In this document: positions 2,746 to 31,153 of the stretch, piece after piece
Numbering within the stretch: the first letter of the stretch is position 1
Layout of the letters: every line of letters begins with the position of its first letter
Made by a program: the position numbers and the translations under genes
IMG/VR virus record: IMGVR_UViG_3300020220_000040
Coordinates: 4,541 to 68,540 of that record
Source of the DNA: a virus
Reading direction: 5' to 3' (one strand)
Length of the DNA: 64,000 nucleotides
Notes under the pieces: model-generated
The model's database searches: none
What the model saw: only the letters and a program-made list of their open reading frames with translations
Told to the model about the DNA's origin: nothing

Positions 2746-3018
2746 TTGTCGAAGTCCGACATGATCCAGCGCATTGCTCGTCGTGCCTCTGAACGTCAGG
2801 GGTACGGCCAGATGCGGACGCTGCACCTCCGCGAAGAGGTGGCCAAGGCGTTGGCCAACCGGCCGGACGGTGCGAAGGCATCCACCCTGTCCGCTGTGCT
2901 GGCCGAAGCCATCAAGTTGATGGTGGGCGAGGGGGCTGATCCGCAAGCGGTGGAAGCCCTGGCCCGTCAAGAAGCCTCGGACTTCGTGAAGAAGGCTCTC
3001 CGCCTGAGGAAACGCTGA
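2746..3018 (+). CDS. Hypothetical protein
   Basis: Phage-like codon use; TGATG overlap with the next gene. Confidence 0.65.
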   Translation: MSKSDMIQRIARRASERQGYGQMRTLHLREEVAKALANRPDGAKASTLSAVLAEAIKLMVGEGADPQAVEALARQEASDFVKKALRLRKR

Positions 3019-3704
3019 TGCCCACCTCCGGTATCTATGCCGTCCGCAACAAGATCAACGGGAAGGTTTACGTGGGGAAGTCTGTAGACATCACCCACCG
3101 TTGGTGCAGCCACAAGGCTCGTCTGCGTCGAGGTGTGCATGTCAACACGCACTTGCAGCGGGCATGGAACCTGTACGGAGAGGGGGCTTTTGAATGTGAA
3201 GTCGTTCACCGGGAGAATGACAGAACCTTGCTGCCGCAACTAGAAGCCCAGTATGTGCTCGACTTCTCCGCCACAGACCCCGAGAAGGGCTACAACTTGA
3301 ATGTGGTAGACACCCACAGCTATCGCGCGAGCCCAGAGACACGGGCCAAGCAGAGTGCGGCACAGAAGGCTCGACATGCGGCCCACCCTCGCACTTGCAC
3401 GCCTGAGCAGCGAGCAAGGATGAGTGCGGCCCAGAAAGCTCGGGGGGCTACAGCTTCGGCGGAAACACGGGCCAAAATGAGTGCCGGCAGCAAGGGCAAG
3501 AAGAAGAGCCTCGAACATCGAGATGCTCTCATCGCCGCACATACGGGATGGGTTCCGAGTCAGGAGACTCGGGACAAGATTGGAGCAGCACATCGGGGAA
3601 GGAAAGCCAGTCCTGGAACCAGAGCCAAGATGTCGGCTACTCGCAAGGGCAAGAAGCGGGGCCCATACCGTAAGCACGCGCAAAGCGTAGAAGAAAACAA
3701 GTGA
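3018..3704 (+). mobile_element. GIY-YIG homing endonuclease with NUMOD3-like repeats
   Basis: GIYAVRN...VYVGKS..I..RW..H, E..Y, GYN; repeated S.ETRAKMS.A.KG units; lower GC than flanks. Confidence 0.9.
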
Positions 3705-3712
3705 GGTAGCCG

Positions 3713-4339
3713 GTGCCTTCTTTCCTCAAGACAAAGAAAGATGAAGATATGTGGGCCAAAGCCAAGGCGTTTGCTGAAGAGTCAGGGCACAAGGACGATT
3801 GGCCCTATATAACAGGCATTTGGAAACAAATGCAGGGCGAGGGTGCTTCGGCTCGGGTCGCGGATCGGTTCCTGGCCGCCTACGAACCCGGTCACCGCAA
3901 GGATGACTCTCGCGACCCCGACACCGATGGCTGGGTGAACGGCCTCGTCGAGGACTTCACCCCCACTGAAGGTGAGGGCTCCCAGGTGCCCTTCCCCCGC
4001 GACAACCAGGGCCACCCCCTCGCCCCGCCCGACCTCGGGATCGAGAACATCCCTGGCTACGAGTGGCACGACAAGTCCAAGGCGTTCCACTCCATCATGG
4101 AGAAGGAAGCCTCGAGCCGGACGGCCTCGATGGAGGACGAGCTTCGCTGGTGCGCCAACGAGATCGACCGAGCCAACGACATCCTTCGCGATGTCGTGCT
4201 GACCCTCGACGGCCGCCGTGATGGGGATGAGTCCATCTCGGACGTGTACGGGGCAGCGGCGGTTGTGACCCGCGAACTCTCCATGAACGTCTCGAAGAGC
4301 CTCGCGGAGGCCGAGAAGAAGCTCCGCCGGCTGGTCTAG
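3713..4339 (+). CDS. Hypothetical protein with RVADRFL motif
   Basis: ORF with GAGG RBS; ASARVADRFLAA; first ~40 codons are AT-richer. Confidence 0.7.
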   Translation: MPSFLKTKKDEDMWAKAKAFAEESGHKDDWPYITGIWKQMQGEGASARVADRFLAAYEPGHRKDDSRDPDTDGWVNGLVEDFTPTEGEGSQVPFPRDNQGHPLAPPDLGIENIPGYEWHDKSKAFHSIMEKEASSRTASMEDELRWCANEIDRANDILRDVVLTLDGRRDGDESISDVYGAAAVVTRELSMNVSKSLAEAEKKLRRLV

Positions 4340-5097
4340 CGCCTGAAGCGGTAGACCGCCGAGGGACGACCCACGCCTCCCCGCTTGCCGGGGGCAGTCT
4401 CGAGGATGCCGTCCTCGAGCATCCGGCGGAACTTCCGGTGGAAGGTCTTGGGGTCGTAGGCGGCTCCCTTGATCGCCTCGTACACCGACCGAAGCTCGGC
4501 CACGGTGAAGGTCTCGGGCACCAGGTCGAAGGCGATGGGGGAGTAGTCGATGCGACCCCGCAGCCGCTTGATGGCCGTGTCGAGAATCTGGTCGTGGTCG
4601 AAGGCGAGGGCCGCCCTACTCTCGAGCACCTCCTGGACGGACTGCCACTTCGCCTCGTCCGCATCGTCCCCAGCCGTCACGAGCGGGGCCAGCGTGGGCC
4701 TCACGAGAGCGAAGTAGGCGACCGAGATGACGCGCGTGCGGGGGTCACGCCCGGCCTTCCCGAACGTGTACAACTGCTCGATGTAGCACGAGCCGTGAGG
4801 GAGCCCCGTCTCCTCCTGCAGTTCGCGGTGGGCCGCTTCCTCCAGATCCTCCCCCTGTTGCTTCAGCCCGTCTCCGACATCGACGAAGCCGCCAGGGAAC
4901 GCCCAGCATCCCCTGTAGGGGTGTCCGCCCCGCTTGATGAGCAGCACCTTCAGATCCGTGTCGATGACCGTGAAGATCGCCAGGTCGACCGTGACCGACG
5001 GCTTCGGGTAGTCCTTCGCCGTGTAGGCGGCGAGGAACTCAGCCTCGGTCATGTCCGCCCCGTCCTTGGACGAGAGCTTTCCGCTGGGATCGGTCAC
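4336..5097 (-). CDS. nrtR: NrtR-type NUDIX + winged-HTH regulator of NAD metabolism
   Basis: KPSVTVDLAIF, WAFPGGFV, AHRELQEETGL, EQLYTFG..RDPR, LAFDH, C-terminal wHTH ending GRPSAVYRF. Confidence 0.9.
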   Translation of the reverse strand: MTDPSGKLSSKDGADMTEAEFLAAYTAKDYPKPSVTVDLAIFTVIDTDLKVLLIKRGGHPYRGCWAFPGGFVDVGDGLKQQGEDLEEAAHRELQEETGLPHGSCYIEQLYTFGKAGRDPRTRVISVAYFALVRPTLAPLVTAGDDADEAKWQSVQEVLESRAALAFDHDQILDTAIKRLRGRIDYSPIAFDLVPETFTVAELRSVYEAIKGAAYDPKTFHRKFRRMLEDGILETAPGKRGGVGRPSAVYRFRR

Positions 5098-6776
5098 TTC
5101 AACCTCATCGTGTACACCTTGTCGCCTCGCACGAAGGCAACCTTGCCCCCGTGCTTGATCAGGTGCATGTCGTTGCCGAGTTCCGTAGACTCCACTACCC
5201 GGATCTTGTCAGAACCGACCGAGGAGACTTCGAGCTTCTCGTCCTCGTTGAGGTGGACGCAGATCCCGTTGTCGAGGACCACGAAGTTGAGCCCGGCCGG
5301 CGTGATGTCCGACACCACCGGGCGCATCCGGTAGGTCTGGTAGTGCTCGTCGAAGATGAAGGTCAACCGGTCGTACTTGCCCTTCTTCGCACCGACGACC
5401 ATCAGGAGGCGGTTGTCGAACTTGGCCTCGACCACCTTGTAGTCGTCGAGTTCGGGCACCCGGACCTGGTGGGCAAGCCCGGCAGCAGGAAACACGGAGA
5501 CGAACATCGAGCCCAGGAGGTTCTGCACGAGCACCCCGTCATGCAGACGGGTGGCGTACTCCAAGATGTTGGCCGCCACCCGAGGAGACGCCACGACGTT
5601 GCTGCCCGAGTCGGTGAGCACCATCTCGATGATGCGATCTGCACTCTTGACGTAGATGCGGCCCCCGTAGGCCATCACCTGGTCGGCCTTCAGAGTGACG
5701 GGCACGTCCTTCTGTTGGGCCATGTTGTAGAGCCGGAGTTCGCCGTTCTCGAGCCACGCCACGACAGGCTGGTTGAGCTTGGGGCTGAAGCCCACTCCAC
5801 GCACCGGAGTGGGTCCCCGCACCTTGCGCCCGTTGAGGAACACGCCCTCGGGAGTGCCCGCCACCACAGCCCCGCCGTTCTCGACGAACCCGAGCACCTG
5901 TGCGGCGAAGGCCGCCAACTCGGAGATGTCGAGAGAGGCCCCGCTGAGGATGGTGCGGACCAACACCGCCGTCGCCACGAACGTGCCGGGGTCTGCAGGC
6001 GGAGGGAGACGCTTCCCGTCCTGGAGGACGGCCTTGAACCACGCCCGGTAGCCAGGCGGAATCACGTCCACGGGGTACACGACCTTGGGGACGGACACCG
6101 AGGGGTCGAAGATGGAGATGCACGCCTTCATCCGCTCCTCGAGCCCGTGGACGGAGGCGTGCTTGCCCTTGTAGGGGTGGATGCCGGTGAACATCTGGTA
6201 CGCGACACACGCGAACGAGAACCAGTCGGACAACTCGGTGAAGTCGTGCCCCTTCACGGTCCAGTCGCGGACGGAGGGCATGATGGCGGTCGCGGGGTAG
6301 CTGCGGGTCTGGTAGCTGTCCACGTCGATGCCGTAGACCTCGGAGAACGTCCGGTCCACGAGGAAGTTCATCTCGTTGAGGTCGACGATGAGCGTGCCCG
6401 ACTGGTGGATGCTCGCCACCATCGCCTGAAGGTTCCGCACGAGGGCGAGCATCTTCGGGTGGTCGAGCCCTTCCCGCTCCCGGAAGGCTCGGGTGAAGAC
6501 CTGGCAGAGCGGCATCGTGTTGCCCACGAACCGCATCGTGTAGCCGAGGGGCTGGTTCGTCTTGGGGTCGAGCAACACCCGTTCGGGCTTGATCACGTTC
6601 GGGTCGCGGATGGCGGCCAACTCCGTGATCTTCCCGACAGGGAGCATCCTCCCGGGGTCCGTGTAGACCTTGAACGCGGTGGTGCCCTTGGCGTAGATCG
6701 AGCCTTCGCCGCCACTTCCCACATAGTCACGTTGTGTCAGCGTGACCGGCCCTTGCCCTTGAATATGGACGATCAC
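5094..6776 (-). CDS. YegI-like Ser/Thr protein kinase (TerY-P triad)
   Basis: GSGGEGSIY, AFKVY, VDLNEMNFLV, IDVDS, DWFSFA, HPYKG. Confidence 0.85.
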   Translation of the reverse strand: MIVHIQGQGPVTLTQRDYVGSGGEGSIYAKGTTAFKVYTDPGRMLPVGKITELAAIRDPNVIKPERVLLDPKTNQPLGYTMRFVGNTMPLCQVFTRAFREREGLDHPKMLALVRNLQAMVASIHQSGTLIVDLNEMNFLVDRTFSEVYGIDVDSYQTRSYPATAIMPSVRDWTVKGHDFTELSDWFSFACVAYQMFTGIHPYKGKHASVHGLEERMKACISIFDPSVSVPKVVYPVDVIPPGYRAWFKAVLQDGKRLPPPADPGTFVATAVLVRTILSGASLDISELAAFAAQVLGFVENGGAVVAGTPEGVFLNGRKVRGPTPVRGVGFSPKLNQPVVAWLENGELRLYNMAQQKDVPVTLKADQVMAYGGRIYVKSADRIIEMVLTDSGSNVVASPRVAANILEYATRLHDGVLVQNLLGSMFVSVFPAAGLAHQVRVPELDDYKVVEAKFDNRLLMVVGAKKGKYDRLTFIFDEHYQTYRMRPVVSDITPAGLNFVVLDNGICVHLNEDEKLEVSSVGSDKIRVVESTELGNDMHLIKHGGKVAFVRGDKVYTMRLK

Positions 6777-7302
6777 GGTTTTGCTCCGCGTGTAGCTCTA
6801 CATGACAACGCACGCAGAGGAGGATGCACTTGTCGATCTCCGCCTGGAGGCGCTGCCACGCCCATCCGTACATGCGCGAGACCGTGAACTCCTTCACTGT
6901 CGGATCGGAGTGGTGGAATACGAGGGCATCGAGGCACCGGAAATAGCCGCACTCGACGCATTTCCCTCCTTTGTATGCGACTGCCCGTTCCTTCTGTCGT
7001 TTTGCTCGCAAAACCGATCGGCAGGCGTTGCAGACCCCCTTCCGATGACCGGCGCTGTTGTTGTGCTTCCCCAGGTAGGTGAACGCCTTGCCACAAGTCT
7101 GGCAGGTGCGCTCGGGGTTCATCGCCTCGGGATCGTGCAGCGGTTGGTGGTTCCTCGCCCCGAAAGGCGAACACTCCAGGCAGTAGATCCTGCTGCTCAG
7201 CATCCTCATCCGACCATCGACCATCACGCGATTCGGAAATGTGTTCCCACACTTCTTGCAGGTTCTCTTGCCGGGTTTGCGGGTTTTGAAGGTGTAGGCC
7301 AT
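6727..7302 (-). mobile_element. HNH homing endonuclease with CxxC zinc ribbons
   Basis: YKGGKCVECGY..C..ALVFHH.DP..KEF..C.LLC..CH..H; lower GC. Confidence 0.85.
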
Positions 7303-7342
7303 GCGCGCAAGCATAGCACAGCGGAGCAACGAAAGCTATGAC

Positions 7343-7414
7343 CTCGCCGCCCGAAGCGACGAACTCCCGCTGGGTGAGGCTGACCTCGCCCTGGCCTTGG
7401 ATGACGACCTTCAT
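7343..7414 (-). pseudogene. Remnant original 5' end of the kinase gene
   Basis: MKVVIQGQGEVSLTQREFVASGGE duplicates the kinase start MIVHIQGQGPVTLTQRDYVGSGGE. Confidence 0.85.
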
Positions 7415-7956
7415 GGCTGTGTCCGTTGGAAATACTGGGTCGGCACGGAGTCCACCAGCCAGACGTGGTTGTCGGTCTCGAAGAACTGGAACCCAGCTTC
7501 GGCCATCTCCTGCGCCCGCACCTCGAGGATCACGGGCTTTCCGTGGCGTCCCCCAACCTGGCGAGCCGTGTCGGTGGTGGCGGACAGGTGGACGTGGTGG
7601 CGGGACATCTTCTGCAGACCTTCCCTGAAGATGGCCTCGAGGAAGCGTTCAGCGGTGCCGTGGTACAGCACGGCGGGCGGGGCCTTCGGCTGGTAGCCAA
7701 GCTCCACCTCAACCGAGTGCCCCTGACGAGCACGGATTCGTGTCCCGTCCTCGTTGAACTCGAACCGCTTCTTGTTGTTGTCCGCGACGACCTGGTTGAG
7801 GTCGTCGCGGGACATCCCACGCCCCCGTTCGTCGAGTGCCTTCAGCAAGGCGTCGACCTCGACCCACCCTGCATCATCGAGGGTGAGCCCCACACTCCCG
7901 GGCTTGTGCCGCAGGATGAGGGAGAGGAACTTCGAGTGTTGGGTCACGTCAGCCAT
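7411..7956 (-). CDS. kptA: RNA 2'-phosphotransferase Tpt1/KptA
   Basis: SKFLSLILRH, KKRF, IRARQGHS, LYHGT, MSRHHVHLS, VWL. Confidence 0.95.
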   Translation of the reverse strand: MADVTQHSKFLSLILRHKPGSVGLTLDDAGWVEVDALLKALDERGRGMSRDDLNQVVADNNKKRFEFNEDGTRIRARQGHSVEVELGYQPKAPPAVLYHGTAERFLEAIFREGLQKMSRHHVHLSATTDTARQVGGRHGKPVILEVRAQEMAEAGFQFFETDNHVWLVDSVPTQYFQRTQP

Positions 7957-10470: not shown

Positions 10471-10484
10471 GGTAAAGCACCTAT
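10471..10484 (+). promoter_or_regulatory. Putative late promoter upstream of the endonuclease
   Basis: GGTAA-AGCA-CCTAT matches the shared motif. Confidence 0.5.
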
Positions 10485-10513
10485 ATCGCAACGGGTGTTA
10501 GCGACGGAGGTGT

Positions 10514-11473
10514 GTGGTGGGTGGTAGAAGTTGGACGTTGGGTGAAGTCGAGGGGTTCTTCCGAAAAGCCGGATGTGAACTCCTCTCGGTTGAGTACACG
10601 GGGTGCAACCAGAGGCTTCGCTACCGATGCGGATGTGGAGTGGAAGCCGAAACAGTGTTCCGAACCTTCAAACACAAGGTTGAAAAGGGTGTTCGTCGTG
10701 GTTGCGAGCATTGCGCGATCGAGCGGATGCTGGAGACCACGCGAGAAAGAAACGGCGGGCAACATCACTTTCAGACTGACGACTTCCTCCGTCGTCGGGG
10801 GGAGTCGAACCTTGCCCGGTTTGGTGTGGCAAACGTTCTTCAGAGTGCCGCGATCAAGCAAAAGCGGGTGGAGACGGTGCGTGCGCGCTACGGGGTTGAT
10901 TCGGTGAGTCAGGTGCCCGAGATACAGCAACGACAACGAGAGGGCTTCCGGGCGAAGTACGGTGTGGAACACTTCCTCCAACATCCAGAATCGGCTGCAA
11001 AGTTCCGTCGGACATTGGTGGAGCGATACGGGGCCCCGAGTCTTGCTTTTGTAAGTCGACGCTCCTCCCACGAAGCACAGAATTTCTTCGGGCTCCTGTT
11101 TGACAGGCTTCCCAAGGAACACCATGAGAAGTGCTACTTCTCCCCCCACACGCGGGAATTCAACGTCTGGAAGGACGGTGCCTACTACAAGTACGACTTC
11201 GTCCATTCCCGATTGAAGAAGGCCATTGAGTACAACGGATCCCGGTTCCACCCACGTCCTGAGCAAGACGCGGACGAGGTCGGGTGGTGCTTGTTCCGAC
11301 CCAACCGCACCGTCCGCGAGGCCCGCGAGTACGAGGAGCACAAGCTCGGTGCCCTCCGTGCTCGTGGGTTCGATGTCATGGTGGTATGGGATCATGAGGT
11401 GAAGCACGACAGGGACTCCGTCATCGCCCAGTGTCTCGCTTTTCTGCTTACGCCAGAACCTCATCGGAGTTGA
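10514..11473 (+). mobile_element. Free-standing endonuclease (Vsr/DUF559-like PD-(D/E)xK) with (K/R)YGV repeats
   Basis: RFGV/RYGV/KYGV/RYGA repeats; YDF...AIEYNG..FH; VVWDHE; antisense to the operon; lower GC. Confidence 0.75.
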
Positions 11474-12350
11474 CGACACGCATCCCCTTCGGCTGCATCT
11501 CCTTCAGGAAAGCATCTCCGAGGAAGTCGAATCCCCCGACGTTCGAGCAGCAGTCACGGATGAGCCACATTTTCTCGACGTACTTCGGGTTCGTGAATGC
11601 CGAAGCAATGTCCTTTCCCGTTGAGGCCACGCAGTGGGACAGCGCCTCGCCCGTGAACAGGATCACGTCGGCGTCCTCGAGGGTCTGGACGAGGCGGGTG
11701 TTGACCTGGGTCGCCGGGTCGGCCGGGTCCGGCACCTCGGCCATGACGCCGGAGAAGTGCTCGGTCCAGGGGTTGTTGCCCTTGACGACGTAGTTGACGC
11801 GGCCGATGAACTCACGCTCCCACCACTTCAGGGCATTCGCGAGTTCGGGGACGACGCCCCAACCCCAGGTGCCGACCACGCAGTGCTCGGTCCAGACGAT
11901 GTGGGGGTAGCGGCCACGGGCCGCGAGGGCCTGCAGGTAGCCGAACGAGCCCTTCCCGGTCGGGCCGCCCTGGTGGAGGAACGAGGGGATGGTGGTGACG
12001 TACTCCTCCTCGGTCGGGGACATGCCGAAGGCGTTCGGGCTCGAGCCGCCGGGGATGAACTTCACGACGCGGCGGCCGTCCGGGTGGATGCCGAGGCAGG
12101 TGAACGGGGCGGGCTCGGCACCGTCCGAGGCACGCTTCCACCAGCGGGGACGCTCGATGCCGACGGTCTGGTGGGAGTCCATCGTGACGTGGATGTCGTC
12201 GATCTTGCTGCCCAGACGGCGGACCATCTTGGCGAGGCGGTTCATGTCCTGGTCGGCACCCGGAACGACGAGGGCACCCTGGTTGCCGTGGCCGTCGTCC
12301 CCGATGCAGAAGTCGTTCTGGGGATCTACCACGAAAAGATGCAAGCGCAT
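11448..12350 (-). CDS. pncA: Nicotinamidase (isochorismatase family)
   Basis: VVDPQNDFC, TMDSH, WTEHCVVGTWG, KG.NPWTEHFS, GEALSHCV. Confidence 0.85.
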   Translation of the reverse strand: MRLHLFVVDPQNDFCIGDDGHGNQGALVVPGADQDMNRLAKMVRRLGSKIDDIHVTMDSHQTVGIERPRWWKRASDGAEPAPFTCLGIHPDGRRVVKFIPGGSSPNAFGMSPTEEEYVTTIPSFLHQGGPTGKGSFGYLQALAARGRYPHIVWTEHCVVGTWGWGVVPELANALKWWEREFIGRVNYVVKGNNPWTEHFSGVMAEVPDPADPATQVNTRLVQTLEDADVILFTGEALSHCVASTGKDIASAFTNPKYVEKMWLIRDCCSNVGGFDFLGDAFLKEMQPKGMRVVNSDEVLA

Positions 12351-12353
12351 GTG

Positions 12354-13205
12354 CTACTCCTTCGGAAGCAAGTGCTTCCAAGTGCGGTTGTGGACGATGG
12401 CGGCCACCGTCCCGGGGGCGATGTTGAAACGTTGGGCGAGCGACACCTGTGCTTCGCCTTCCTTGAAGGCGGCTCGGATCTGAAGGACATCTCCGTCTCT
12501 CAACTTGGAGAGATGGTGTCCCGATCCCCGCTTGCGCTTGGTGATCAGGCTGTCACGGTGAGGCACCGACTTCTGCGGAGGTCGAGACACGGCATCTTCC
12601 GGCGACCACCCGTTCTTGAGCCGGTATTCCAACGACTGGACAGTGATGCCGACCTCCTCCGCCCACTGTGTGAAGGGCTTGGTGACACCTTCGACGGTGA
12701 GGAACCTCGTGGAGGAGGTGTTGCGGGCCTGTTCTTTGGGTGTGGCCCACCGGACGTTGTGGGGCTCATAGTTCCCGTTGTTGTCGATGCGATCGAGCGA
12801 GTGTTTCGGGGAAGGTCGAGGCCCCATATCTGCGAGGAACTGATCGAAGCTCTTGTCCCACGCCGCACACACCTGAGCCCGATTCCCATAGAGGTAGAAG
12901 CTCTGGTTCCTCGGATCTGAGCACCTCCGACGCATATTCATCCAGATGCGATACTCGGGGCGGTAGCTGCGGGGGAGCGGGCTTTCCGTTGGGAGATGGG
13001 TTGAAGCACCCACTTCCGCCAAATCAACGGTGGGCACTACCTGAGCCCACGCCCCATACTTCTGTGAGAAGAATCCGATGGGACAGACTTCCACACCTTC
13101 CCGCACGAACGAGTCCGCGAGAACTACAGCATCTCGGACGTGCGCCGTTCGGGCTTTGCGGGATGGGGCGGAAGTCAGTTGCACGAAAGTCCCTCTTTTG
13201 AGCAT
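12354..13205 (-). mobile_element. HNH-type homing endonuclease
   Basis: EYRIW..MRRRC, YG, F..DMG.RP..HSLDRIDNNGNYEP.NVRWAT..EQARN; C-terminal HTH. Confidence 0.85.
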
Positions 13206-13236
13206 TGTGTGAAGCCTCCGTAGGGAGACTATCACA

Positions 13237-14262
13237 TCAGACCGGAAGCTCGTTGGTGAGGATGCCCGCTTTGACCAACGACGCGCGGTCACCGAGGGCC
13301 GGGCAGTTGGGGTTCATCTTGTGGCGGGTGGCCGCCTCGACCCGCCGGGCGTTCGTGAGGAGCGTGGTGACCACGTTCTCGGGGATGTTCGCGAACATGG
13401 ACAAGCGGGGGGCGACCTCGTTCAGGCTGAGGAAGGCCAGGGACTCGGAACTGTCCCCGAACAGGACTTCACCGGCCCTCCCGTCGGTCCCGTCGCAGAA
13501 GCGGTGCAGCCGCTCGATGAGGCCGACGTTCTTGTAGGCCCCCGTCTCCACGTCCACGTAGGAGTAGAACGGGATGCCACAGCCCTTGAGGCCGAGGTAG
13601 GACGCGATCTCCTCCTCGTCGTTGTGCTGGTCGCCGACGCCCCACAGGTCGGGGGACGGACGGGCGGTCAGGATGGAGCGGGGGACACCGAGGGCGATGC
13701 CCAACTGGAACACCTCGCCCTTCGACAGCATCGAGATCGGGTTGGAGTCGACCTCGCCGTCGCCGCCCTTCTGGTAGAAGCGGAGGACACGGTCCTCGTC
13801 CTCGTTGCCCGTGCCGTGGCGGATGCCCCCGCCCGAGAGGCGGTTGGCGGCCCGACCCCAGGGGGCACGGAGGGTGGAGCGGATGGAGCCGAGGATGGTC
13901 GGGTCCTTCTTGATCCGGGTGAAGATGTCCGCCTCGGAGTACCCGGCCCGCGTCATCGCGGTGAGCATGGTCTGGTACAGGGTGTCGAACAGGAACGTGC
14001 CGTCGAACTCGATGAGCTTGACCCCGAACGCCTGGGCACACTCCCGAGCCCGAGCGAGAGCGTCCGGGTTGGAGTTGATGCCGAGGAAGGCTGCGGTCAC
14101 GTTCTCGGGGCCGAGAGCACGGGAGAGGAGCCCGAGCATCACCGCCGAATCCACACCTCCGGAGAGGTCCAGTTCCGCCCGGGTCTGACCTGCCTTCTGG
14201 TGCATGTCGCGGATCGCCGCGACGCGGTTGTCGATGAGGGCCTGCGGGTTGAGGACGGGCAT
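13237..14262 (-). CDS. nadE: NH3-dependent NAD+ synthetase
   Basis: LSGGVDSAV, GTGN..E, FYQKGGDG, PI..LSK.EV, PSPDLW. Confidence 0.9.
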   Translation of the reverse strand: MPVLNPQALIDNRVAAIRDMHQKAGQTRAELDLSGGVDSAVMLGLLSRALGPENVTAAFLGINSNPDALARARECAQAFGVKLIEFDGTFLFDTLYQTMLTAMTRAGYSEADIFTRIKKDPTILGSIRSTLRAPWGRAANRLSGGGIRHGTGNEDEDRVLRFYQKGGDGEVDSNPISMLSKGEVFQLGIALGVPRSILTARPSPDLWGVGDQHNDEEEIASYLGLKGCGIPFYSYVDVETGAYKNVGLIERLHRFCDGTDGRAGEVLFGDSSESLAFLSLNEVAPRLSMFANIPENVVTTLLTNARRVEAATRHKMNPNCPALGDRASLVKAGILTNELPV

Positions 14263-30553: not shown

Positions 30554-31153
30554 GTGGGGACAAGACCTCGTCTACAATTGGAAGGTCAACGGTTTGGAAA
30601 GTTGATCGTAGAGTCCGTGTCCACAAAGGATCGGAACGGGCATTACCGCTTCTTGTGCCGCTGTGATTGTGGCGTCGAGAAGGTAGTGCAGGGGACACAT
30701 CTGGTTCAAGGTAAGACCATCTCTTGTGGTTGCGCGAAGCCTCGGGGTTCCAGCCACAAGCAGTGGACGGGCTGTGGAGAGATCCACGGCAATTACTTTG
30801 CGGGCATTCGCCGAAGTGCTGCGGGCTCGAAGGGTCGAGCCCCGTTGACCTTCGACATCACTATCGAGTACATCTGGGACTTGTTCCTTGCACAAGAGCG
30901 ACGGTGTGCTCTTTCCGGACTCGAACTGAACTTCAAAGTCGGGAACTACAACAGCCCTGGCCGGGGTCACAGTCAGACTGCATCGCTGGACCGCATCGAC
31001 AGTGGGGAAGGCTACGTGCCCGGAAATGTTCAGTGGGTTCACAAGGACATCAACCGGATGAAGAGTGTGCTACCCCAGGACCGGTTTCTGGACTTGTGCC
31101 GCAGGGTGTCGGCCCACAACTCCAGCGGCTCCAGCGGCTCCTGCGAGTTGTGA
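30554..31153 (+). mobile_element. HNH-like homing endonuclease
   Basis: GQRFGKL, CRCDCG, SCGC, CALSG, SLDRIDS..GY..GNVQWV...N.MK. Confidence 0.85.

What the first reader, a model, noticed from the sequence alone, without database searches (positions are those of the whole stretch)
6773..7414. Old kinase start reads through the entire HNH gene in another frame and stops exactly on the new start
Seen: ORF 7414-6773 (213 codons) begins at the remnant ATG, stays open across the endonuclease, and its TGA overlaps the replacement GTG (GTGA at 6776-6773). Inference: this overprinted frame may act as a ribosome conveyor that preserves translational coupling from kptA to the kinase across the insert.
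Basis: partly seen in the sequence, partly recalled or inferred. Interest (0 to 1): 0.7.

Follow-up and report, generated by a model that had tools for sequence, protein, structure and literature searches.

The report
Stop-free bridge frame across endonuclease insert
A selfish DNA-cutting gene sits inside the start of a giant phage's kinase gene, and a second reading frame through it is free of stop signals here and in eight related inserts, most likely so that ribosomes starting at the displaced old gene start are carried across the insert to the new start.

Summary
On the minus strand, ORF 7414-6773 (213 codons) starts at the displaced kinase ATG, which forms ATGA with the kptA stop. It runs through the HNH gene in that gene's -1 frame and ends in a TGA that overlaps the new kinase GTG (GTGA, 6776-6773).

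In this genome alone the ORF is not convincing. After calibration on the window's own genes, the chance that the frame is open is about 0.03-0.07, and the window holds 31 comparable -1-frame open stretches.

The comparative test changed the verdict. An exhaustive protein search with the frame's product found eight relatives of 191-222 residues. Each starts with a kinase-like N-terminus that breaks off after the G-loop GG, and each then reads on through a homologous HNH gene. Six of the eight end at the same aligned column as ours, give or take one.

The peptide itself drifts: median identity is 28%, and 22 of 28 changes against the nearest relative fall on HNH third positions. Only the openness is kept. 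Nine of the ten cassette lineages on record are called in this frame.

I read it as a selected ribosome bridge built into a start-displacing homing-endonuclease cassette. The function is inferred. I did not see the DNA of any relative. The scan noted related layouts on other DNA (e1-5348880, e1-4688753, e1-5212978).

The parts
7411..7956 (-). kptA (RNA 2'-phosphotransferase Tpt1/KptA), the upstream gene whose stop overlaps the displaced kinase start
   Evidence: Pfam PF01885 E 6.9e-51; phrog_5470 E 7.5e-67
7411..7414 (-). ATGA: kptA stop TGA overlapping the displaced native kinase ATG
   Evidence: Sequence
7342..7414 (-). Displaced native 5' end of the kinase gene (24 codons, through the G-loop GGE), still with its ATG
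   Evidence: Second match to kinase residues 3-26 in the own record. GC3 is 0.92, like the kinase body at 0.914. Resembles the N-termini of the closest kinase homologues.
6773..7414 (-). Bridge frame: 213-codon ORF made of the displaced start plus the -1 frame of the HNH gene, ending in TGA over the new GTG
   Evidence: Eight relatives with the same layout. No Pfam or PHROG family. AF2 mean pLDDT 36.8.
6705..7341 (-). Inserted cassette (637 nt): HNH gene plus a differently spelled copy of the first 24 kinase codons
   Evidence: Composition break: HNH GC3 0.73, new first 24 codons GC3 0.54, flanks 0.91-0.92. Old and new copies agree at 7 of 24 third positions. Both copies end in GGCGGCGA.
6727..7302 (-). 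HNH homing endonuclease gene (ATG 7302; frame open from 7335); its last 50 nt overlap the kinase start
   Evidence: phrog_2255 E 4e-39. The M-A-x-T start is shared with P0001. The ATG column is kept in 7 of 8 relatives.
6784..6787 (-). GGAG Shine-Dalgarno-like motif 7 nt upstream of the new GTG
   Evidence: Sequence. The matching R-G-G/A residues are kept at the end of 6 of 8 relatives' bridge products; that these spell an SD is inferred.
6773..6776 (-). GTGA: bridge-frame stop TGA overlapping the new kinase start GTG
   Evidence: GTG is the first start codon after the in-frame TAG 6800-6798 (read).
5094..6776 (-). Kinase gene (560 codons) as now expressed, with the cassette-borne N-terminus
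   Evidence: Pfam Pkinase E 1.8e-4, below the cut-off. Full-length homologues in huge phages at 36-51% identity.

Best explanation
The 213-codon ORF is a selected, stop-free 'bridge' frame. It belongs to a mobile HNH homing-endonuclease cassette that sits inside the 5' end of a huge phage's kinase gene.

Shown: the cassette (7341-6705) lies just after the G-loop GG codons. It carries the HNH gene and a differently spelled copy of the first 24 kinase codons, with its own GGAG and GTG. The native 5' end (7414-7342) is left upstream with its ATG, which still overlaps the kptA stop (ATGA).

Inferred: ribosomes that start at this displaced ATG enter the cassette in the -1 frame of the HNH gene. In this cassette family that frame is kept free of stops by the choice of HNH third-position bases. 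The ribosomes therefore cross about 190 codons and terminate on a TGA overlapping the new start (GTGA), the commonest layout for termination-reinitiation. This preserves kinase expression by handing ribosomes on, by keeping the mRNA translated, or both. The peptide made on the way has no function of its own.
For: Anatomy.

Comparative evidence. An exhaustive phmmer search of 1.84 billion representatives with the frame's product gave 9 hits. One is an unrelated 3171-aa protein. The other 8 are 191-222 aa and 30-86% identical. Six of these 8 begin with a kinase-like N-terminus (M-K/R-[VIL]-x-[VI]-[QK]-G...GG), and all 8 lose likeness to kinases right after GG. A cluster mate of a seventh (P0138, 211 aa) starts MKVTIKGK. 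Six of 8 end at our last column, give or take one; two end 8 codons earlier.

The relatives carry an HNH homologue one base downstream. 61-98% of positions are compatible with our HNH residues, against 21-41% in shifted controls. Seven of 8 keep xAT-Gxx where our HNH ATG lies.

Only openness is conserved. Median pairwise identity in the cassette part is 28%. Of 28 differences from P0129, 22 need a change at bridge-codon position 1, which is HNH position 3. 0 of 9 products hit Pfam. AF2 gives pLDDT under 50 for residues 22-212.

The rough per-lineage chance of openness is 0.001-0.1. The same method reproduces the DNA-based 0.03-0.07 for our copy.

Both outcomes are visible in the protein collections. 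Where the frame is open, callers take it: our own ORF is P0140, and our HNH protein is absent. Only one cassette lineage (P0001/P0139, 57% identity, same DRPYSR tail) is recorded in the HNH frame. That makes 9 of 10 clusters at 90% identity open.

The HNH's own stop lies 50 nt inside the kinase. The review PMC12548453 (passages read) reports no coupling at a 25-nt overlap in one study and names NTGA as the commonest spacing.
Against: In this genome alone the openness is only marginal (0.03-0.07), and such frames are common here (31 in the window).

The new start has its own GGAG 7 nt upstream. Folds around it are no stabler than shuffles (z -0.10 and 0.15). So need for coupling is not evident.

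I saw no DNA of any relative. That their ORFs end on a kinase start is inferred from aligned ends, and 2 of 8 end 8 codons earlier.

The denominator rests on gene callers' choices and on a word-based search. I read the tails of 41 of its 71 hits. The state of the frame in the P0001/P0139 lineage is unknown.

A decayed cassette of the family at the kinase start of L002 has two stops in this frame. That copy is AT-rich, has lost the HNH N-terminal half and has no displaced start.

kptA is next to the kinase only here (0 of 25 other loci).
Confidence: 0.58

Rival explanations
1. Chance by-product. In a GC-rich genome the -1 frame of genes is often open. The displaced ATG merely happens to read into such a frame, and NTGA at the new start stops it. 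Nothing is selected.
For: The calibrated P(open) for this copy is 0.03-0.07. 15.6% of 188-codon -1 windows in host genes are open (1270 of 8152). There are 31 such stretches in the window, and the stop-to-stop stretch runs on upstream to 7648. NTGA starts are a family trait and common in general (PMC5850271, abstract read). Seven distant HNH homologues at other sites have 10-29 stops in this frame, close to expectation.
Against: Eight diverged relatives with the same layout are all open, at a rough chance of 0.001-0.1 each. Only one lineage is recorded in the HNH frame. 0 of 277 such windows are open in the four other endonuclease genes of this window.
Confidence: 0.15
2. The ribosome traffic in this frame serves the endonuclease, not the kinase. 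Ribosomes from the strong native start run over the HNH start and set (limit or permit) HNH translation, or simply protect the insert's mRNA. The end on the kinase start is incidental.
For: The HNH ATG 7302 has no clear Shine-Dalgarno motif. It lies with ATG 7314 in a predicted hairpin (fold of 7379-7280: -36.6 kcal/mol, z -1.64). Free-standing endonucleases of T4 are often held down by overlap with, or coupling to, upstream ORFs (PMC2988022, passages read).
Against: Control of the HNH start would not need the frame to stay open for another 175 codons. It would also not need the frame to end at the same column in 6 of 8 relatives. The fold's z-score is weak.
Confidence: 0.15
3. The frame encodes a functional overprinted protein: a kinase N-terminal strand fused to a new domain.
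For: Gene callers report it as a protein in 9 clusters. Its length is conserved at 191-222 aa.
Against: There is no Pfam or PHROG family. AF2 with the 9-row alignment gives mean pLDDT 36.8 and no secondary structure past residue 20 (a shallow alignment, so weak evidence). Median identity is 28%, with only 7 invariant columns. 22 of 28 changes against P0129 are at the position that is synonymous for the HNH gene. HNH-compatible identity for that pair is 161 of 164, against 160 of 188 identical bridge residues.
Confidence: 0.05

Closest known systems
Translational coupling by termination-reinitiation at overlapping NTGA stop/start codons (review PMC12548453, passages read)
   Same: The bridge ORF is joined to its neighbours by ATGA at its start and GTGA at its end. 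A Shine-Dalgarno-like GGAG lies before the downstream start.
   Different: The upstream ORF here is not a gene for a protein. It is a stop-free alternative frame laid over a selfish gene, about 190 codons long, and only its openness is conserved.
Mitochondrial mobile-ORF (mORF) endonuclease 'gene hybrids': Allomyces macrogynus atp6; Glomus atp6, atp9, cox2 and nad3 (PMC3630166, passages read)
   Same: An endonuclease element inserts inside a host gene and brings a foreign, diverged copy of the gene end. The native end is left beside it as a displaced duplicate.
   Different: In those elements the 3' end is replaced and the mORF is often in phase with the host gene. Here the 5' end is replaced, the endonuclease is in another frame, and a third frame links the old start to the new one.
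Free-standing HNH and GIY-YIG homing endonuclease genes of T4-like phages (mobA, mobE, seg genes; PMC2988022, passages read)
   Same: A free-standing endonuclease gene sits at a functionally critical, conserved part of a host gene. It overlaps neighbouring ORFs. Coupling has been proposed as a means of expression control.
   Different: The T4 cases split the host gene into two polypeptides or sit between genes. The passages I read describe neither a replacement gene end nor a bridging frame.
ComEB/ComEC of Bacillus subtilis: an ORF that must be translated, though its product is dispensable, for synthesis of the downstream protein (bioRxiv 10.1101/2020.12.30.424838; only the search listing's abstract start seen)
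   Same: Translation of an upstream ORF, rather than its product, is what matters for the next gene.
   Different: comEB is an ordinary gene in its own frame. It is neither overprinted on another gene nor part of a mobile element.
Phage T4 gene 60 translational bypass beside the mobA insertion (bypass recalled from memory; the mobA insertion into gene 60 is named in PMC2988022)
   Same: Ribosome traffic has to be repaired at a homing-endonuclease insertion inside an essential-looking region of a gene.
   Different: There, ribosomes hop over 50 nt within one polypeptide. Here nothing is skipped: a separate ORF is read through and a new initiation follows.

Membership tests
Free-standing HNH homing endonuclease gene | Encodes an HNH-family nuclease | tested here: met
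   phrog_2255 E 4e-39 plus six further PHROG families annotated as HNH endonuclease or of unknown function. Pfam PF01844 is only E 0.17. There are 71 homologues.
Free-standing HNH homing endonuclease gene | Present or absent among otherwise homologous loci, at a fixed site in a conserved target | tested here: met
   0 of 25 kinase homologue loci carry a full cassette and 1 (L002) carries a truncated one. All 8 relatives break after the same G-loop GG. Composition is foreign.
Free-standing HNH homing endonuclease gene | Cleaves the insert-free allele and is copied into it by repair | not testable with these tools
   The only hint is from one soil run. A contig over 6566-7107 differs at 14 of 542 letters, while contigs over the kinase body differ at 11 of 238 to 17 of 168 and over kptA at 49 of 379.
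Translationally coupled gene pair (termination-reinitiation) | Same-strand ORFs with overlapping or abutting stop and start (NTGA) | tested here: met
   ATGA at 7414-7411 and GTGA at 6776-6773.
Translationally coupled gene pair (termination-reinitiation) | Translation of the downstream ORF depends on translation of the upstream ORF | not testable with these tools
   This needs reporters or ribosome profiling. Predicted folds at the start are not significant.
Overprinted (dual-coding) protein genes | Both frames conserved as protein sequences | tested here: not met
   The bridge product drifts (28% median identity) and 22 of 28 changes are at HNH-synonymous positions. There is no family hit and no confident fold.
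Group I/II intron or intein carrying the endonuclease | Ribozyme core, or an in-frame splicing domain around the endonuclease | tested here: not met
   Rfam gives 0 matches at E up to 1 over 6400-7800. Only about 34 nt of the 637-nt insert lie outside the HNH ORF. The HNH frame is closed by TAG 7338 at the junction. The insert length is not a multiple of 3.
Mitochondrial-type mORF gene hybrid | Endonuclease element carrying a diverged duplicate of the host gene end, with the native end displaced | tested here: met
   Here it is at the 5' end rather than the 3' end and in a phage, so it is an analogue, not a member by descent.

The most novel reading that the evidence does not exclude
These are a distinct kind of homing-endonuclease element, one that displaces a gene's start. 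The element restores the host gene with a respelled 5' end. It has also evolved a built-in ribosome relay: selection on synonymous sites of the endonuclease gene keeps its -1 frame stop-free, so that ribosomes loaded at the displaced start are delivered to the new start. This would be a general way for selfish inserts to cancel their own polar effect. It would also be a source of systematic wrong-frame gene calls in public data.
Probability: 0.45. Interest if true: 0.75.

Novelty: new variant of a known kind. Interest (0 to 1): 0.6.

Why it matters
If true, a selfish element is under selection at sites that are silent for its own protein, purely to keep a second frame readable. That frame is conserved for being open, not for what it encodes.

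It would show how homing endonucleases can sit inside an expressed gene without an intron or intein and still leave host expression intact.

It gives a simple, testable case of long-range translational relay: a silent stop in the frame, or loss of the old ATG.

It also has a practical side. Gene callers take the bridge frame, so the endonuclease goes unannotated: our own record and eight relatives are filed as hypothetical proteins in the wrong frame.

Tried and rejected
**Naive statistics.** Synonymous permutation (P 0.0005) and Fisher's test (0.0019) looked strong. I rejected both as nulls, because ordinary genes here show half the expected -1-frame stops.

**Close DNA relatives.**
- Megablast against phages found nothing.
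- The viral-contig scan with the HNH found none.
- An exact pattern from the kinase start found none.
- P0001, P0138 and P0134 in viral contigs found none.
- None of L029-L073 has a kinase or kptA nearby.
- Alignment A2 was too loose for a locus scan.
- A tail-only protein search (residues 160-200) scored nothing.

**Sequencing runs.**
- No RNA holder was listed.
- Contigs of four runs were laid.
- No joint across the insert was listed.
- X16 bins 7131-7324 have no cover.
- 82 differences beyond 6639 were not shown, so the frame could not be checked in the X16 relative.
- Contigs of three lake runs, possibly from one campaign with the source, are identical to the window. One (X8 record 30, 6631-7372) bridges both junctions.

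**Intron or intein:** rejected (and by the frames).

**Programmed +1 frameshift from the bridge into the HNH frame.** I considered this and set it aside. The HNH ATG column is conserved in 7 of 8 relatives and I saw no known shift site.

**Ribosome hop between the two GGCGGCGA copies:** rejected. The distance is 636 nt and no stop follows the take-off site.

**RBS sequestration:** the folds were not significant.

**Literature.** Five searches turned up no paper describing a stop-free frame across an endonuclease insert. Supplementary files were not opened.
Full report
**Where the window lies.** The window is 64 kb of a 68.5-kb viral record estimated at 13% complete. GC is 64%. Its kinase has full-length homologues only in uncultured phages of 350-620 kb, at 36-51% identity. 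It is therefore a fragment of a huge phage.

**Anatomy on the minus strand.**
- PP2C-like phosphatase, 8857-7949.
- kptA, 7956-7411 (PF01885, E 6.9e-51).
- An ATG at 7414 overlapping the kptA stop (ATGA).
- 24 codons that look like a kinase N-terminus (MKVVIQGQGEVSLTQREFVASGGE).
- An HNH endonuclease gene (phrog_2255, E 4e-39), open from 7335, with ATG at 7302 and stop at 6729-6727.
- The 560-codon kinase, starting at GTG 6776, with GGAG 7 nt upstream.

The tool itself finds window 7337-7408 as a second copy of kinase residues 3-26.

**The insert is foreign.**
- GC3 is 0.92 in the displaced 5' end and 0.914 in kinase codons 25-560.
- GC3 is 0.54 in the first 24 codons of the working kinase and 0.73 in the HNH gene.
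- The two N-terminal copies agree at 44 of 72 bases: 20, 17 and 7 of 24 at codon positions 1, 2 and 3.
- Both copies end in GGCGGCGA.

So a 637-nt cassette (7341-6705), made of the HNH gene plus a respelled 5' end, lies just after the G-loop GG codons. There is no RNA family in the region. The insert is almost filled by the HNH ORF, so it is neither an intron nor an intein.

**The observation.** ORF 7414-6773 is real. It has 213 codons and no stop until the TGA at 6775-6773, which overlaps GTG 6776-6774. It is the -1 frame of the HNH gene and the +1 frame of the kinase.

**Chance in this genome alone.** A synonymous permutation of the HNH gene leaves the frame open in 0.05% of trials. I do not trust that null. 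By the same null, 49 ordinary genes of the window have 183 -1-frame stops where 356 are expected, and the four other endonuclease genes have 22 where 44 are expected.

The rate of a stop per T-ending codon is 0.113 in host genes (182 of 1604) and 0.12 in the other endonucleases (22 of 184). The HNH has 22 T-ending codons before the GTGA, none followed by AA, AG or GA. That gives P = 0.06-0.07. A second model gives 0.03-0.044.

Of 188-codon -1 windows, 15.6% are open in host genes and 0 of 277 in the other endonucleases. The window holds 31 same-strand -1-frame open stretches of at least 188 codons.

The stop on the start needs no explanation beyond the frame. 12 of 18 homologue loci whose match begins at the start codon read ATGA, and three more read GTGA, GTGA and TTGA just upstream. 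Fourth-site A is general (PMC5850271, abstract read). At this stage I held the finding to be a marginal coincidence.

**The turn.** I searched the product of the frame against 1.84 billion representative proteins with phmmer. It found 9 hits. One is an unrelated 3171-aa protein. The other eight are 191-222 aa, aligned end to end with ours, at 30-86% identity.

Their sequences and alignment show the same layout.
- Six begin with a kinase-like N-terminus. A cluster mate of a seventh does too (P0138).
- All lose likeness to kinases just after the G-loop GG.
- All then run on for about 170-195 residues, nearly without gaps against ours.
- Six end at our last column, give or take one. Two end 8 codons earlier.

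**What the relatives encode.** From a protein one knows the first two bases of most codons. For each relative I counted positions at which the frame one base downstream could encode our HNH residue. The result was 61-98%, against 21-41% for shifted controls. Seven of 8 have xAT-Gxx at the column of our HNH ATG. They are therefore homologous HNH cassettes at the same site in different kinase alleles.

**What is conserved is openness, not the peptide.**
- Median pairwise identity in the cassette part is 28%, and only 7 columns are invariant.
- Against the nearest relative (P0129), 22 of 28 differences need a change at bridge-codon position 1, the HNH third position. For that pair, 161 of 164 positions stay HNH-compatible.
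- 0 of 9 products match Pfam.
- AF2 with the 9-row alignment gives mean pLDDT 36.8 and nothing folded past residue 21 (the alignment is shallow).

**Chance across relatives.** I used each relative's own residue counts and the context ratios measured in this window. The rough chance of an open frame is 0.001-0.1 per lineage. The method returns 0.035-0.089 for our copy, in line with the DNA-based figure.

**Ascertainment.** A closed frame would leave the HNH ORF to be called, and such proteins would appear in the HNH search (71 hits). Only P0001 and its twin P0139 are close (57%) and share our kinase-overlapping tail DRPYSRxRxGxAD. I read 41 of the 71 sequences and saw that tail in no other.

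All 45 loci of more distant HNH homologues lack a kinase nearby. Our own HNH protein is absent from that collection, while our bridge ORF is present as P0140. This shows that callers prefer the bridge frame when it is open.

So 9 of 10 clusters of this cassette at 90% identity are open. The weak points are these: the count rests on gene calls and a word-based search, the state of P0001's frame is unknown, and I saw no relative's DNA.

**A decayed copy.** In L002 (an AT-rich 595-kb phage), a truncated HNH homologue with only the catalytic half overlaps the kinase ATG by 53 nt. GGAGG lies 6 nt upstream, and the start reads ATGA. There is no displaced start upstream, and the -1 frame has stops at 3876-3878 and 3972-3974. 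This fits the idea that the frame matters only while a displaced start feeds it. One AT-rich case proves little.

**Other contigs.** Contigs of three lake runs match the window exactly, and one bridges both junctions. These runs may be from one campaign with the source. A soil run of another study holds a contig over 6566-7107, covering the kinase start and the HNH 3' part. It differs at 14 of 542 letters. Contigs over the kinase body differ at 11 of 238 to 17 of 168, and over kptA at 49 of 379. This hints that the cassette is younger than its flanks, as homing would predict.

**Mechanism.** Shown: the two overlaps (ATGA, GTGA), the open frame, its conservation, and the drift of its product. 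Established knowledge: NTGA is the commonest coupled spacing, and long overlaps couple poorly (PMC12548453, passages read). The HNH's own stop, 50 nt inside the kinase, is therefore badly placed to hand ribosomes on. Inferred: ribosomes starting at the displaced ATG cross the cassette and reinitiate at GTG 6776, or at least keep the mRNA covered.

Two points count against need. The new start has its own GGAG. Its predicted fold is no stabler than shuffles.

**Known relatives of the idea.**
- Coupling at NTGA.
- Mitochondrial mORF gene hybrids, which carry a foreign gene end and leave the native one displaced (PMC3630166, passages read).
- T4 free-standing endonucleases that overlap upstream ORFs or split genes (PMC2988022, passages read).
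- comEB, whose translation rather than product is needed downstream (listing only).

None of these, and none of five literature searches, describes a stop-free frame overprinted on an endonuclease gene as a bridge. Notes of this scan describe related start-displacing layouts on other DNA. I did not test them.

**Verdict.** It is a new variant of known kinds. Interest is 0.6.

Noticed in passing
L002:3832-4053 (LR756511.1): A truncated HNH homologue (catalytic half only; 51% identity, E 1e-10) overlaps the kinase ATG 4001 by 53 nt, with GGAGG 6 nt upstream and ATGA at the start. It is a decayed cassette of the same family at the same place. It has no displaced start, and the bridge frame has two stops.
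   Followed up: partly
window 10481-11503 (-): A 340-codon stop-free stretch runs antisense to the plus-strand homing endonuclease 10514-11473. It links the end of pncA (11448) to the vWA start (10491 or 10458) in the minus-strand operon. In-register antisense frames are often open here (50 antisense stretches of at least 188 codons; the other endonucleases have 1-3 stops in that frame), so it may be chance.
   Followed up: partly
window 6773-7414 and proteins P0129-P0140: Public gene calls take the bridge frame rather than the HNH frame. The window's own ORF and its eight relatives are on record as unnamed or 'hypothetical' proteins. The window's HNH protein is absent from the protein collection.
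   Followed up: yes
window 6566-7107 in run X16: A soil-metagenome contig from another study covers the kinase start plus the HNH 3' part with 14 of 542 differences. Contigs over the kinase body and kptA differ by about 5-13%. This hints that the cassette spread after the flanks diverged. The letters in the cassette were not shown.
   Followed up: partly
window 7296-7320 (-): ATG 7314 and the HNH start ATG 7302 sit in the two arms of a predicted 7-bp hairpin (fold of 7379-7280: -36.6 kcal/mol, z -1.64). This could hold down endonuclease translation.
   Followed up: no
window 3018-3704, 10514-11473, 12354-13292, 30554-31153: Four further homing-endonuclease genes (GIY-YIG, two HNH-like, one other) have GC3 of 0.64-0.71 in a genome whose genes have GC3 of 0.76-0.93. 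I used them as calibrators for off-frame stop rates.
   Followed up: partly
window 7411-7956 versus 25 kinase homologue loci: kptA lies next to the kinase only in this phage: 0 of 25 other kinase loci have it within 4 kb. In L001 an unrelated 123-codon ORF holds that position.
   Followed up: partly
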